A DNA stretch of 64,000 nucleotides from Octopus vulgaris (GCA_951406725.2 OX597819.1:75950001-76014000), one strand, 5' to 3'. Numbered from the stretch's first letter, positions 7,664-45,878 are shown. Numbers and translations are program-made. Notes: a model not told the origin generated them from the letters alone.

Positions 7664-7815
7664 AGTAGCCATGATAGATCGGTAGCCACTACACATATTT
7701 TTTCTCTCTTTGTTTTTTTCTGTGTCCCTTTCTGTAGAAGAGCGTTATACTAATACATCTGTTTCTTTTTACACCACCTGTCTTCGTCTTTTCTTTTTTT
7801 CTTGAACTCTTCCTA
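7664..7815 (+). mobile_element. HHR family C element, 3' half of ribozyme deleted
   Basis: Aligns with 31931-32145 and 45690-45878; deletion between two GAGCG direct repeats; ends in (TA)n. Confidence 0.75.
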
Positions 7816-8571
7816 TATATATATATATATATATATGTGTGTGTGTGTGTGTGTGTGAGTGTGTGTGTGTGCATGTATGTATATGTTTATGAATGCATGT
7901 GTAAGTTGTTGTGTATCTACGTGTGTGTGTATACGTGCATACGTAAATCTTTAGATTCTCAATGAATGAAGTTAGTACTTTATATAAACTGAATATCTTT
8001 TACTTGCAACGTCATTTTCAACCCATTCATCTTAAATCGCAATGGCGTGGAACTCGAATGATATATACATCCGTATCTCTCTCTGTATGTATATCTATCT
8101 ATCTATCTATCTATCTATCTATCTATCTATCTATCTATCTATCTATCTATCTATCTATCTATCTATCTATCTATCTATCTATCTATCTATCTATCTATCT
8201 ATCTATCTATCTATATAGATCTTCTGCTGAGAGCATGGACGATTGCTAGTGGCGATCCGCCGAACAACATCATCACTGCCGCGCTAAAAAACAATGGATT
8301 TCATAGAACCATTGACCAGATAGAGCGGAAGAAAAGTGAGTTTATCCGGCCTTACATGCTTATAAGACCACACATCAAAACACTGGGCAACATAATTGAA
8401 AATTATTGTGGCAAAGCTGATGAGGATGAAGAGGACGAAAAAGAGAAGGAAGCCGGAAGTCTCTGTGATCCAGGGGTTCCTCAGGAAAATGGATCACCAA
8501 CCCCGGTGAAAGACCAGGTAGTGAAGGATAGGTGAGCCAAGGGAGCAGAAACCGGAAGCCCCCCTGTACCA

Positions 8572-8976
8572 GTGGTCCTACGAAGAAATGAAAAATTAGA
8601 TAAACAGAAGAAAAAAGGAAGGACCGAAAACCAAAATAAGGAGGGAAAAGGAGGAAAAGGCAAAACAACCAAAGCTGAAACCCCAACCCACCACACAAAC
8701 AGCAGAGAACCCCATGGAGGATCCAATGCCACCCAGTACACTTCAGAAAAGAAGAAATCTGGAAGGCACCGAAGAACCTGTAAGTTCTACCTGCGGAGCA
8801 AATGTTGGCATGGTGAGGACGGCAAAAACTGCCGGTTCGCCCACCCGACACCCCGCCAGAACTTCAGGCGACTCAAAGAGAAAAACTTTACCGAGGGAAC
8901 ACAAGAAATGTCTCCCAGGAAAACTTTCAAAAGACGAAGTGCGCTCCTCAGGTGTTCTGCGCAATGCAGCATCTGA
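8572..8976 (+). pseudogene. LINE ORF1 remnant with CCCH zinc finger
   Basis: CKFYLRSKCWHGEDGKNCRFAHP (C-x7-C-x8-C-x3-H), basic region, upstream of the APE domain. Confidence 0.65.
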
Positions 8977-9099
8977 GCAAGAGTCTTTTTTATGCATGGC
9001 GCAAAGAATTGTCCGGCAGCTAACCTGGCTACACCAAGCACAGAGAAGGAACCCTGCCCACCACTATGCAAGACCACCACAGTCAACAGACACGGGATG

Positions 9100-11721
9100 G
9101 CCTCCCTAACGCCATCACCCCAATACTTTTACTAAATATTGGGGGCCTGTTGCATCAAAATAGAAACAAAATTTCTTTCCTGAGAGATCTTACTGCATGC
9201 AATCAGGCCCTATGCATAGCACTTGTGGAAACTCACCTCAACCCTGATATAGAGGACGCAGAAGTACACATACCAAACTATGCCATACTGCGACGGACAG
9301 AAGGGAAAGGAGCCATGGTGGAGTTGCTGTATACATCCACGATGACCTCACACCCCAGGTCTTAATGACATACTCAAATTCGGTATGTGACACTTTAATT
9401 GTATACATAAGACAACATAATATAGTCATATGCAATACATATTGCCCACCGGATGCCCCAAATCACATAGGCAAGTTTGAAGATTGCCTCACAAGAATTA
9501 AAGAAATCCTCATGAATCTGGAACACCACGTGACCATATTTCTTATGGGTGATTTCAACTTCCCCAACGTCAAATGGCCCGAAGGTCACATACTCTCAGG
9601 AATGAATCATTGCAAGCAAGTACAGGTGGAGTCCCTGCTCAACCTCACCAATGTCTTATTCATGGAGCAAGTTGTACTCAAGCCAACTAGGGCGAATAAC
9701 ATTCTGGATCTCTGCTTCACGAACAATATGGACATCATTCATGATGTGAAAGTGACACTGACATCAGTTTCGGATCACAACATAATAGAGCTGTCTATGT
9801 TTGGGCCAAAAGTAACCAGAGACATACAGCCTAAAAGAAGCACCCGAAATCTCTCCAATCTGAACTTCCACAAAGCAGATTGGAAATCGATCCAAAAAGA
9901 GATCCTCAGAGAGGACTGGCTGGAATGTCTCTCCACACCAGACATTGACATGAAACTAGAATGTTTCATGTCTTCTGTGCAAGCCGTATGCCAGAAATAT
10001 GTCCCAGAGCACAAGGCCAAAACAAATAGGAGCAAGATTCCAAGAGACAGGAAGATCCTCATGAGACGTTGGACGAAGGTTGCAAATCGTCTCAACCAAC
10101 ATCCCAAAAGTAGCGAAACGTCCCGCCTAAAAACAACACTGATGGAGATCGAAAAAAGGCTGCAACAATCCTATGTGAAGGAGAAAGCAGACAAAGAAGC
10201 CTGGGTTATAAAAAACATTAAATCAAACCCAAAGGCCTTCTTTCATTACGCGAAAGAAACAGTCTCAGTGCACTACAAGATAGGACCCCTCCTCCAAAAG
10301 GATGGCTCCCTCACAGACAGTCCAACTATGATCAGTGAGATGCTGAATGACCAGTTCAAAAGTGTCTTTACCACTCCGTTGGAACACAGACAAGTGAACG
10401 AACCAGTGGACTTCTTTGCCGCCTCACCTATAACCAGCGAGGCGGTTACAATAGAATGTATTGACATTAGCGAAAAAGATGCCCTACTAGCCATAGATGA
10501 AGTGGACACAAACTCAGCTGCTGGTCCAGACGGTTTCCCAGCCATCCTCCTCAAAGCGTGTAAGAATACCCTGGCAAAACCCCTCAAGATTCTCTTCCAG
10601 AGCTTTCTTGCGAATGGCAAACTGCCAAGCAAGCTGAAGGAGGGAATAATATGCCCAATACATAAAGGGGGAAGTAGAGCAGATGCCAAAAACTATAGGC
10701 CTATCTTTCTGACTTCACACATCAGCAAAGTCATGGAACGGATAGTAAGAAACTAATCGCATTCCTTGAAGAAAATAACTTGCTGAGTGATACCCAGCAT
10801 GGTTTTCGACCAGGTAGGAGCTGCCTGAACCAGCTCTTACAGCATTATGACTGGGTGTTGAGGCAGTTACTCAACAAATCAAATGTGAACGTAATCTACC
10901 TTGATTTTGCAAAAGCTTTTGACAAGGTGGATCATGGTATGATATGCCACAAACTGCGTGACCTCGGCATAGCTGGAAAACTTGGAGTGTGGTTGCATGA
11001 CTTTCTGAAAGATAGGAGTCAGGCAGTAGTGGTTAATGGAGCCACCTCTGTGAACACACAAATAGCGAGCGGTGTTCCACAGGGCACTGCTCTTTATAGT
11101 GGCCCTCTCAGATATGCCCTCAAATGCCCGGATAGCCACTCTGGCCAGCTATGCAGACGATACGAAAGTCTCGCAGAAAATACAGAACCTCAGCGATGTT
11201 GCACACCTGCAGCAGGAGTTGGACTCAATCTACAGATGGGCTGAGGATAATAATATGCAGTTTAATGCTGAAAAATTCCAGGCCCTGCGCTACCAGCATC
11301 CAAAACTGAATATTAAACTTACAGGATACACTGGTCCACAGGGAATTTCAATCCCAGAGTCTAAGTCTGTGAGGGACCTGGGTATTGACATGAGTGATGA
11401 TACCTCTTTCCAAGTGCACATTACCAGGATGGCGACAAAGTGCAGACGACTGGCTGGGTGGATCCTAAGAACATTCAGAACCAGAGATAAGGAAACCATG
11501 ATGGTCCTCTGGCGGACATTCGTCCTCAGCCGCCTGGATTATTGCTCACAGCTATGGTCACCCACCAGTGTAAAATTAACAGCGGACCTTCAAACAATCC
11601 AGAGAAGATTCACAAATAAGATCGTCTTTGCAATAGCTCAGCTATTGGGAAAGGTTGAAACAGCTAAGACTCTACTCCTTGGTGAGAAGACGGGAGAGGT
11701 ATGCAGTAATATATGTCTGGA
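9100..11721 (+). pseudogene. LINE ORF2 (AP endonuclease + reverse transcriptase), frameshifted
   Basis: APE: ALVETHL, MGDFNFP, NILDLCFTN, SDHNII. RT: AGPDGFP, KNYRPI, QHGFRPGRSC, YLDFAKAFDKVDH, SGVPQGT, YADDTK, RDLGI, RLDYCSQLW. Confidence 0.95.
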
Positions 11722-44106: not shown

Positions 44107-44630
44107 ACACATTGGATAATTAAGTAGTCCTAAGCGCATTAAAGCCGAAAAAAAAAAGAAAAAGCAGAATAAAATAATAATAGTGATTGGGATTACTTTA
44201 ATCATAATTTTGCTGAAATAGGTCTGAACTGGCTAAGAAATAACGACAATGATAACAGCAATAATGCTATATTAATAACAACTCAACTAACAAACATCTA
44301 CAATAAAAATAACAGCAGGAACGTCAATGAGACAGTGATACCCTCCTCTTTCTTTCTTTCTTTCTTTCTTTCTTTCTTTCTTTCTTTCTTTCTTTCTTTC
44401 TTTCTGTCTTCCTTCCTTCCTTCTTTCTTTATTTATTTCTATGACCATCCACGCAGCAAGATTGAGCAACTGTTTAATCATTAGTTGCCTTGTTAAGCGA
44501 CAAATAACGAATATTTATGTATTTTAGATGGTGAGAAAAAAACAGTCAGAAGGAGAGAGAAGAAGTAGACATGAGTGGAGGAGTAGAGGAGAGAGAAGGA
44601 GAGACTGAGAGAGTTAATGAGATGTTGATA

Positions 44631-45038
44631 GGCACAGGAGTGGCTGTGTGGTAAGTAGCTTGTTTACCAACCACATGGTTCCGGGTTCAGTCCCACTGCG
44701 TGGCACCTTGGGCAAGTGTCTTCTACTATAGCCTCGGGCCGGTCAAAGCCTTGTGAGTGGATTTGGTAGACGGAAACTGAAAGAAGCCCGTCGTATATAT
44801 GTGCATATATATATGTGCGTGTGTGTTTGTGTGTCTGTGTTTGTCCCATCCAACATCGCTTGACAACCGATGCTGGTGTGTTTATGTCCCCGTCACTTAG
44901 CGGTTCGGCAAAATACACCGATAGAATAAGTACTGGGCTTACAAAGAATAAGTTCCGGGGCCGAGTTGCTCGATTAAAGGCGGTCCTCCAGCATGGCCGC
45001 AGTCAAATGAGTGAAACAAGTAAAAGAGTAAAAGAGTA
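44631..45038 (+). mobile_element. SINE family A (full length)
   Basis: A and B boxes, body and (GTAAAAGA)n tail; reverse complement of 3006-3431. Confidence 0.92.
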
Positions 45039-45689
45039 TTTATTTACCAAAGAGTGTTGAGCACACATTCTCACTTTTCGATATTGACATCTGTCTATCT
45101 ATCTATCTATCTATCTATCTATCTATCTATCTATCTATCTATCTATCTATCTATCTATCTATCTATCTATCTATCTATCTATTCATCCATCCATCCATCC
45201 ATCCATCCATCCATCTATCTATCTATCTATCTATCTATTTATCTATCTATCTATCTATCTATCTATCTAAACACATATATACACGATTACATATATATAT
45301 ATGTATATATACAACACCCCAACACCACATATATATCAAAAACAGATAATGAACAAACAAAACGTTGTAACATGTATTATTTTGAGCATTTAATTTATAA
45401 GTCTAATTTAAACATAATTCGAACATAGTGCAGACTAGTTATTAAGAATACACAAGGTCTCTTACAGTTGTGTCTAGATAGCTAAGCATAGGGACCATAT
45501 GCTATTGAGTAGAGATTTCCACATAAGCTAACTATACCGTCATCGGTGAGAGGGAAATAAAGAGTATTCCTAATGAAGGACAGTAGCAGTTATGTATGTA
45601 TGTATGTATGTATGTATGTATGTATGTATGTATGTATGTATGTATGTATGTATGTATGTATGTATGTATGTATGTATGCATATATATAT

Positions 45690-45878
45690 ATCGTTAGCTA
45701 CTACACGCATTTTTTTATCTTGTTTCTCTCCTTGTTTTTTTCTGTGTATCTTTCTGTGGAAGAGCGTAGGCTCGAAACGTAAAAGACGTTTTCTATTCCT
45801 GAGCGCTATACTAATACATTTGTTTGTTTGTACACAACCTGCCTTCGTCTTTTGTTTATTTTCGTAAACTTTCCCTTT
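45690..45878 (+). mobile_element. HHR family C element in microsatellite
   Basis: TCTTT-CTGTGGA-A-GAGC GTAG GCTC-GAA-ACGT-A-AAAGA at 45749-45786. Confidence 0.8.

What the first reader, a model, noticed from the sequence alone, without database searches (positions are those of the whole stretch)
7664..45878. A microsatellite-targeted set of at least 7 unrelated hammerhead-ribozyme mini-elements (cephalopod retrozyme / Penelope pLTR system)
Seen: short non-coding elements with no mutual sequence similarity at 14506, 28694, 36404, 38571, 39578 and 41195, plus family C (4 copies). All sit in or beside (TA)n tracts and carry stem I-YNGNNRA-stem II-GAA-[stem III]-H-stem I. Stem III differs in each family but is palindromic or nearly so: ACCGGT, ACCTTGCAGGGT, ACAATTGT, ATCGGT, AGTACT, ACCTAGGT, ACGT. 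This is covariation rather than chance. Established: Penelope-like elements carry minimal type I HHRs in their pLTRs, form 5'-inverted and partial-tandem insertions, and some clades target microsatellites; metazoan non-LTR retrozymes produce small circular RNAs. Inference: this genome hosts a diverse, partly recent population of non-autonomous ribozyme retroelements mobilised in trans. I cannot confirm whether these families are already described.
Basis: partly seen in the sequence, partly recalled or inferred. Interest (0 to 1): 0.85.

Follow-up and report, generated by a model that had tools for sequence, protein, structure and literature searches.

The report
Penelope retroelement ends plus hitchhiking retrozymes
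These are real repeated elements with hammerhead-ribozyme motifs sitting in TA microsatellites: four of the seven are cut-off ends of protein-coding Penelope-like retrotransposons, and three are small non-coding tandem units that carry the same insertion signature and so likely hitch a ride on Penelope enzymes; self-cleavage is predicted, not shown.

Summary
The motifs are real: 5 sites fit a type I hammerhead descriptor against 0.55 in shuffles, and core pair 3-8 covaries across genomic copies. The set is not uniform. Four have a Neptune/Nematis-type linker and one is Hydra-type. The 39578 fragment is 100% identical to an intact 4,271-bp RT/GIY-YIG element. Three families (28694, 38571, 41195) are ORF-less tandem units of 482, 489 and 360 nt with one ribozyme motif per unit, i.e. 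non-LTR retrozymes. These three show the PLE signature: 5'-inverted arms, one ending at a short and one at a long fixed site in (TA)n (35 of 39 two-armed insertions). That supports mobilisation by PLE enzymes in trans. Which PLE moves them, and whether the RNAs cleave or circularise, is untested. PLE ribozymes, retrozymes and their proposed link are published; I did not find these families or the two-end signature on retrozymes in the papers searched. Verdict: new members of known kinds, with one useful mechanistic clue.

The parts
14507..15011 (+). Family A: 5'-inverted, truncated 3' end (pLTR plus ~36-nt tail) of a Neptune/Nematis-type PLE. Ribozyme motif 14818-14856 (U3-A8 core, one extra U, 2-bp stem II), predicted cut after 14850. 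The inverted left arm has the ribozyme core deleted.
   Evidence: (20 of 30 loci with PLE ORF upstream)
28693..29570 (+). Family B: ORF-less retrozyme, 482-nt unit. Inverted arm 28693-28921 plus about 1.3 direct units; intact-core ribozyme motif 29245-29342, predicted cut after 29335.
   Evidence: (118 exact 22-mer hits)
36360..36584 (-). Family D: old (about 85%) truncated 3' end of a Hydra-type PLE. Ribozyme motif 36402-36509 with a long stem II insert.
   Evidence: (12 of 20 Hydra-EN loci have it downstream)
38571..39252 (+). Family E: ORF-less retrozyme, about 489-nt unit, 1.3 units with a short 5' inversion. Ribozyme motif 39038-39094, predicted cut after 39087.
   Evidence: (521 exact hits)
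39298..39531 (-). The 5' core half is missing in this copy.
   Evidence: (13 of 30 loci with PLE ORF upstream)
39578..39787 (-). Family H: truncated 3' end, 100% identical to the pLTR of an intact 4,271-bp tandem PLE (454-aa ORF plus 775-aa RT/GIY-YIG ORF). Ribozyme motif 39710-39754, predicted cut at 39715.
   Evidence: (1,959 exact 18-mer hits)
41195..41730 (+). Family F: ORF-less retrozyme, 360-nt unit. Inverted arm 41195-41466 ends at the short site and the direct arm ends at the long site. Ribozyme motif 41466-41517, predicted cut after 41507.
   Evidence: (1,598 exact hits, arrays up to 9+3 units)
45690..45879 (+). Family C copy: truncated 3' end of a PLE with a long pyrimidine-rich 3' UTR. 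Minimal ribozyme motif 45749-45786 (U6 variant, extra A after A9).
   Evidence: 10,752 exact hits; 23 of 25 EN loci have it downstream
31931..32144 (+). Family C copy, ribozyme motif present
17529..17670 (-). Family C copy, diverged ribozyme motif present
7664..7815 (+). Family C copy with the GAA/stem III part deleted between two short direct repeats

Best explanation
The window holds a mixed population of (TA)n insertions: five families (A, C, D, G, H) are 5'-truncated ends of ORF-bearing Penelope-like retrotransposons whose pLTR carries a hammerhead motif, and three (B, E, F) are ORF-less 360-489-nt tandem retrozymes that are likely copied into the genome in trans by a PLE reverse transcriptase/endonuclease and are predicted to self-cleave, probably as dimers. 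Likely steps: (1) A tandem locus is transcribed (inferred). (2) Two ribozymes pair through their palindromic stem III and cut out unit-length RNA, which may be ligated into a circle (inferred from known retrozymes). (3) The PLE GIY-YIG endonuclease cuts a (TA)n tract (target bias shown, enzyme inferred). (4) Both DNA ends prime reverse transcription at two fixed internal sites 135-255 nt past the ribozyme cut site. This gives two oppositely oriented arms, one 46 nt (F) or about 100 nt (B, E) longer than the other (end positions shown; cause inferred from the in vitro Anolis PLE). (5) RT runs round the template or along a multimer, giving near-identical head-to-tail units (homogeneity shown; circle versus multimer not resolved).
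For: ORF linkage: A 20 of 30, G 13 of 30, H 13 of 30 loci have a sense PLE ORF upstream. The C motif lies downstream of 23 of 25 endonuclease-fragment loci, the D motif of 12 of 20. The H element is intact with a 4,271-bp period; Pfam RVT_1 E 2.3e-6, GIY-YIG E 2.7e-5. CX4CX2C linkers occur in the A, G, H and C partners; a CxCX5C linker and Hydra-like RT motifs in the D partner. No such linkage for B (0 of 60 loci), E (0 of 60) or F (0 of 45) with the H/A proteins; the few hits with four further protein sets were neighbours across a TA tract or an inverted arm, or in the wrong place. Their upstream sequence is the previous unit or an inverted arm. Periods are 482, 489-498 and 360 nt. Two-end rule, after merging overlapping loci: one short plus one long arm in F 10 of 11, B 10 of 11, E 15 of 17, and autonomous H 4 of 4. 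PMC11167929 (passages) ties this tail to two internal RT start sites and calls it unique to PLEs. Covariation of pair 3-8: F, first 100 of 1,500 hits, 82 C-G, 9 U-G, 9 U-A, 0 C-A; G, first 100 of 272, 79 A-U, 8 G-C, 13 other. F stem III centre: 84 AT, 15 TA, 1 TT, 0 AA in the first 100 of 1,598. F units differ by 0.48 substitutions within arrays (103 pairs, 10 arrays) against a mean of 8.0 between arrays within 20 differences; a 9+3-unit inverted array has 0 substitutions among its 10 full units.
Against: No parent or partner PLE with a pLTR homologous to B, E or F was found; only 30 of 6,136 GIY-YIG candidates were examined. Covariation counts reflect a few subfamily-level events, not independent ones. 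Rfam hammerhead models give no hit. The ribozyme fold is not dominant in isolated monomer folding: stem I probability is <=0.05 for B, D, F and C in the register tested, 0.27 for H, and 0.76-0.9 for A and E. C has U6, A has a 2-bp stem II, and F and H often have C4, so some motifs may be weak or dead. Only 1 of 9 Xenopus retrozyme dimers cleaved in vitro (bioRxiv 10.64898/2026.07.22.740005), and cleavage was dispensable for the Anolis PLE in vitro. Nearest-array distances are often 0-1, and one array alternates a variant with period 2, so a homogeneous linear multimer template is not excluded.
Confidence: 0.8

Rival explanations
1. All families are pLTR fragments of autonomous PLEs. The short tandem arrays of B, E and F arose locally after insertion by unequal crossover or slippage (minisatellite route), and their parents are simply unsampled or extinct.
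For: True for 4 of the 7 listed families. The links of C and D were missed by my first protein search, so negatives can mislead. The 2026 preprint proposes local amplification of PLE termini.
Against: Arrays lie on both arms of one inversion, each arm ends at an RT start site, and units are identical across arms. Hundreds of dispersed loci are 98-100% alike and share one period. In 0 of 40 plainly truncated flanks was there a shared upstream extension, apart from a short inverted arm.
Confidence: 0.12
2. B, E and F are non-autonomous but are mobilised by a LINE (RTE, CR1, Dong-R4), and the shared (TA)n bias is coincidental.
For: PMC7229834 leaves LINEs or PLEs open (passage). These LINE families are active in octopus (PMC13282606, passages).
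Against: No poly(A) or simple-repeat tail is present in the units. The ends lie at two internal sites exactly as in the autonomous PLE H.
Confidence: 0.04
3. The elements are PLE-mobilised, but their hammerhead motifs are catalytically dead relics or serve only as folding or recognition elements.
For: Variant cores (U6 in C; C4 in F, H and D), weak monomer folds, no Rfam hit, low or absent in vitro activity in related work.
Against: Pair 3-8 and the stem III palindrome are kept through double changes in amplified subfamilies. Position 7 varies freely in C. B and E have perfect cores.
Confidence: 0.2

Closest known systems
Metazoan non-LTR retrozymes (Cervera and de la Pena 2020, PMC7229834; Li, Clavereau and Pollet 2026, bioRxiv 10.64898/2026.07.22.740005)
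   Same: B, E and F are ORF-less head-to-tail units with one type I hammerhead motif each and GC below 50% (35, 32, 47%). They co-exist with autonomous PLEs, which are the proposed mobilisers.
   Different: B and E (482-489 nt) exceed the 170-400 nt of the 2020 paper but fall within the 51-972 bp of the preprint. Circular RNA and cleavage are not shown here. No cephalopod, 5' inversion or two-end tail signature turned up in term searches of those main texts. No homologous parent pLTR was found.
[quoted passage not shown]
   Same: [quoted passage not shown]
   Different: A3-U8/G3-C8 cores (G), U6 (C) and an extra U before position 3 (A) were not seen in the two parts read.
Neptune/Nematis-type and Hydra PLEs (Craig et al. 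2021, PMC8557442)
   Same: C-terminal GIY-YIG, CX2-5CxxC linker (A, C, G, H) or CxCX5C linker (D), partial tandems, 5' inversions, 30-40-bp tail, (TA)n targets. Its supplement already lists an Octopus Hydra element with a ribozyme.
   Different: The D ribozyme differs from that of Hydra-1_Obim (by eye), so it is another family. Clade placement here rests on motifs, not on a tree.
PAc, Poseidon PLE of Anolis (Frangieh et al. 2024, PMC11167929)
   Same: Two internal RT start sites produce the genomic tail.
   Different: That element is autonomous. Here the same two-end pattern is on non-coding units, and the tail reaches about 100 nt in B and E.

Membership tests
Type I hammerhead ribozyme (PLE minimal type) | Core CUGANGA...GAAA...UH flanked by stems I and II | tested here: met
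   Exact in B and E; one change in F and H, two in D. A (U3-A8, extra U) and C (U6, extra A) fit only as variants.
Type I hammerhead ribozyme (PLE minimal type) | Short palindromic helix III and covariation of pair 3-8 | tested here: met
   few independent events
Type I hammerhead ribozyme (PLE minimal type) | Match to an Rfam hammerhead covariance model | tested here: not met
   No hit at E<=10 in the B and E/G/H/F stretches; none among the 150 listed of 183 whole-window matches. That these models are built on canonical forms is recalled, not tested.
Type I hammerhead ribozyme (PLE minimal type) | Self-cleavage at H17 | not testable with these tools
   needs an in vitro assay
EN+ Penelope-like element (A, C, D, G, H) | RT plus C-terminal GIY-YIG ORF directly upstream of the ribozyme-bearing pLTR | tested here: met
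   Only H's GIY-YIG passes the Pfam cut-off; the RVT_1 scores are just below it. D and G partners are degraded.
EN+ Penelope-like element (A, C, D, G, H) | Partial tandem or 5'-inverted structure, tail, (TA)n bias | tested here: met
Neptune/Nematis (A, C, G, H) or Hydra (D) clade | Linker motif CX2-5CxxC, or CxCX5C | tested here: met
Neptune/Nematis (A, C, G, H) or Hydra (D) clade | Phylogenetic placement of the RT among reference PLEs | not tested
Non-LTR retrozyme (B, E, F) | ORF-less head-to-tail units, each with a type I hammerhead, GC below 50% | tested here: met
Non-LTR retrozyme (B, E, F) | Homology to a PLE pLTR | tested here: inconclusive
   None among the PLE ends held; sampling covers a small part of the genome's PLEs.
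Non-LTR retrozyme (B, E, F) | Accumulation as unit-length circular RNA | not testable with these tools
   No run on record as RNA was listed, and only contigs were available.
Non-LTR retrozyme (B, E, F) | Canonical loop 1 / loop 2 tertiary contacts | not tested
   not modelled
Non-LTR retrozyme (A, C, D, H) | No ORF between successive ribozymes | tested here: not met
   H period is 4,271 bp with ORFs; A, C and D are ORF-linked.

The most novel reading that the evidence does not exclude
Three unrelated, very young retrozyme families carry the PLE-specific two-start-site tail and 5' inversion, and their multi-unit arrays were written at the moment of insertion by a PLE RT circling a monomeric ribozyme-made RNA circle. 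This would be direct genomic evidence that animal retrozymes are PLE parasites rather than locally grown satellites. The genome also holds intact, identical PLE copies (H, 4,271 bp; a 781-aa family) with which to reconstitute the pairing. A shared CCCTTAT-like motif just before arm ends in B, E and F may be the RT recognition signal.
Probability: 0.45. Interest if true: 0.62.

Novelty: new member of a known kind. Interest (0 to 1): 0.4.

Why it matters
Who mobilises animal retrozymes, and whether their tandem arrays come from reverse transcription of a circle or from later recombination, is open: the published case rests on co-occurrence and pLTR similarity. Here the insertion anatomy itself points to PLE enzymes, and young donor and passenger families sit in one genome, which makes the pairing testable. 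The rest (pLTR ribozymes on truncated PLEs in TA tracts) is expected biology, though the families supply natural core variants and are probably unlabelled as ribozymes in cephalopod repeat libraries.

Tried and rejected
Rfam scans gave only microsatellite/miRNA noise and no hammerhead. The repeat finder was swamped by microsatellites. A DNA search with H returned nothing, not even the window copy; an exact 18-mer then gave 1,959 hits. The first tblastn with H and A proteins missed the links of C and D; they were found through single long copies. F next to H at three places on C1 looked like RT chimeras, but all three junctions hold a TA tract, so they are co-targeted insertions. An E-like copy behind a 781-aa PLE was a separate insertion across a TA tract, not its pLTR. 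Hydra-type fragments near E copies were likewise unlinked. A search for a parent of F with its upstream 121 nt returned only F copies. Sequencing runs: no RNA holder listed. Contigs of four runs whose RNA status is a guess cover the F unit, and three show the unit-to-unit junction, but genomic tandems hold the same junction, so this says nothing on expression or circles. No PLE ORF remnant lies in the window itself. The descriptor hit at 60331 was looked at only briefly. Earlier findings of the scan: none. Literature searches behind 'not found': Penelope+hammerhead+Octopus, retrozyme+metazoan, hammerhead+Penelope+dimers, Octopus+Penelope+TEs, hammerhead ribozyme+cephalopod, retrozyme+octopus, non-autonomous+Penelope-like+pLTR+tandem+hammerhead. 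The supplement of PMC7229834 and the preprint's supplements could not be seen and may list cephalopod families. Repbase, Dfam and the repeat library of PMC13282606 were not searchable. Lunse et al. on PLE ribozyme variants was seen only as a citation.

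
Full report
Setting. The window is G000:C6:75,950,001-76,014,000 of a 2.80-Gb assembly in 227 contigs. It is 35.7% GC and rich in microsatellites.

Is the motif real? All quoted stem III strings sit behind GAA in a type I hammerhead layout. A descriptor with at most one core mismatch finds 5 sites against 0.55 +/- 0.67 in 20 local shuffles. 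B and E have perfect cores; F and H have one change, D two. A (U3-A8, an extra U, 2-bp stem II) and C (U6, an extra A after A9) fit only as variants. U3-A8 and the extra nucleotide after position 9 are described for PLE minimal ribozymes (PMC4209133, parts 1-2 of 4 read). Across genomic copies the tertiary pair 3-8 is kept. In F the first 100 of 1,500 hits are 82 C-G, 9 U-G, 9 U-A and 0 C-A. In G the first 100 of 272 are 79 A-U, 8 G-C and 13 others. The centre of F's stem III flips between AT (84) and TA (15), with 1 non-palindromic copy in 100. I tallied these by hand from the listings, and they reflect a few subfamily events. Against: Rfam models do not hit, and monomer folding favours stem I only in A and E.

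Which are PLE ends? A and G copies extend upstream into RT/GIY-YIG ORFs in 20 of 30 and 13 of 30 loci, and H in 13 of 30. H has 1,959 exact 18-mer hits, recurs at a 4,271-bp period, and is 100% identical to the end of an intact element with overlapping 454-aa and 775-aa ORFs; Pfam gives RVT_1 E 2.3e-6 and GIY-YIG E 2.7e-5. C (10,752 exact hits) looked solo, but one long copy runs through about 800 nt of pyrimidine-rich UTR into an endonuclease ORF. The C motif lies downstream in 23 of 25 loci fetched by that ORF fragment, and the partner has RVT_1 and GIY-YIG matches. D runs into a degraded ORF with the CxCX5C linker given for the Hydra clade and RT motifs resembling Hydra-1_Obim; the D motif follows in 12 of 20 loci. 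The partners of A, G, H and C have CX4CX2C linkers, the Neptune/Nematis mark linked to microsatellite bias in PMC8557442 (passages, section 11 and supplement hits).

Which are retrozymes? B, E and F repeat head to tail at 482, 489-498 and 360 nt with no ORF between ribozymes. The window copies of B and E are themselves about 1.3 units long. No sense PLE ORF was found upstream in 60, 60 and 45 loci (some loci overlap); further protein sets gave only unlinked neighbours. After merging duplicates, what lies 5' of the element is an inverted arm in B 21 of 41, E 40 of 59 and F 11 of 17 (very short inverted arms were undercounted). Exact-motif counts are 118, 521 and 1,598. The top F copies are 98-100% identical, B 96-99%, E about 89-93%. 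Units fold 66-70% paired as circles (no shuffle control).

Insertion anatomy. Mapped 3' ends abut (TA)n in roughly 53-82% of cases per family against 4-11% background. Ends are not at the ribozyme cut site but at two fixed sites beyond it: F +175 and +221, B about +137 and +234, E about +150 and +252, H +138 and +170. In two-armed insertions one arm takes the short site and the other the long one: F 10 of 11, B 10 of 11, E 15 of 17, H 4 of 4 (overlapping loci merged by hand). PMC11167929 (passages) shows that a PLE RT starts at two internal sites, which explains this tail, and calls the signature unique to PLEs. Finding it on ORF-less units is the best evidence here for PLE mobilisation in trans. 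F units differ by 0.48 substitutions within arrays against about 8 between arrays, and a 9+3 inverted array is uniform across both arms. This favours arrays made at insertion over later crossover. It does not separate a monomer circle from a homogeneous multimer: nearest arrays often differ by 0-1, and one array alternates a variant.

What is not shown. No partner or parent PLE for B, E or F was identified (30 of 6,136 GIY-YIG candidates viewed). Cleavage, circles and expression are untested.

Known work. Non-LTR retrozymes and PLEs as candidate mobilisers: PMC7229834 (passages; supplement unreadable). Retrozymes as non-autonomous PLE derivatives in vertebrates: bioRxiv 10.64898/2026.07.22.740005 (parts 1-3 of 5 read); its term search gave no 'tail', 'octopus' or mollusc. 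Recently active PLE families are reported in O. vulgaris with no mention of ribozymes (PMC13282606, passages; PMC8967140, passages). PMC6765202 was seen as passages.

Verdict. A real feature, partly misread: ordinary PLE ends plus three new retrozyme families. Novelty: new members of a known kind. Interest 0.40. The two-end signature on retrozymes is the part worth following.

Noticed in passing
L241:2553-6148 (G000:C1:64,678,552-64,682,147); L460:268-3968: Two young intact PLE families (H, and a 781-aa family 47% identical to it) each have an upstream ORF of 454-479 aa overlapping the RT/EN ORF in another frame by 80-90 nt, suggesting a frameshift or an intron. The Fig. 1 legend of PMC8557442 mentions an ORF1 separated by a frameshift.
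   Followed up: partly
window 38571-39787: E, G and H sit side by side, separated only by TA tracts. F-H and F-E neighbours on C1 are also joined through TA tracts: repeated insertion into the same microsatellite builds clusters.
   Followed up: yes
units of B, E, F (window 29070-29080, 38730-38740, 41673-41685): A CCCTTAT-like motif lies 3-20 nt before an arm end in all three otherwise unrelated retrozymes; family C ends in a similar CCCTT before TA. Possible RT recognition signal; picked post hoc, with no control.
   Followed up: partly
window 14620-14645: The inverted arm of A lacks exactly the sequence enclosed by ribozyme stem I, as if the hairpin was skipped during copying. The C copy at 7664 has lost its ribozyme between short direct repeats.
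   Followed up: no
L456:4880-4930, L446 (downstream of the EN match), L079:1165-1215: At least three further hammerhead-bearing families: the 3' end of the 781-aa PLE (U3-A8 core), another PLE end with the same stem III as A, and one beside an (ATT)n tract.
   Followed up: no
L433-L455 downstream of the ORF: The 781-aa family has a 3' UTR of tandem ~60-100-nt repeats containing ATTGGTC and TGATGACGTC motifs (CCAAT-box and CRE-like; labels recalled), perhaps the pLTR promoter.
   Followed up: no
window 60323-60370: A hammerhead-like hit with two core mismatches, a 6-bp stem I and a palindromic stem III, about 140 nt before a (TC)n(TA)n tract; could be chance at that stringency.
   Followed up: no
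window 3100-3430, 14250-14480, 38240-38465, 44630-44960, 5428-5650, 20577-20840, 50341-50571, 58194-58387: Several copies of other abundant short interspersed repeats (SINE-like), unrelated to the ribozyme families.
   Followed up: no
L443 (G000:C30:5,221,180): A GIY-YIG match that looks like an exon of a host SLX1-type nuclease rather than a PLE (label recalled).
   Followed up: no
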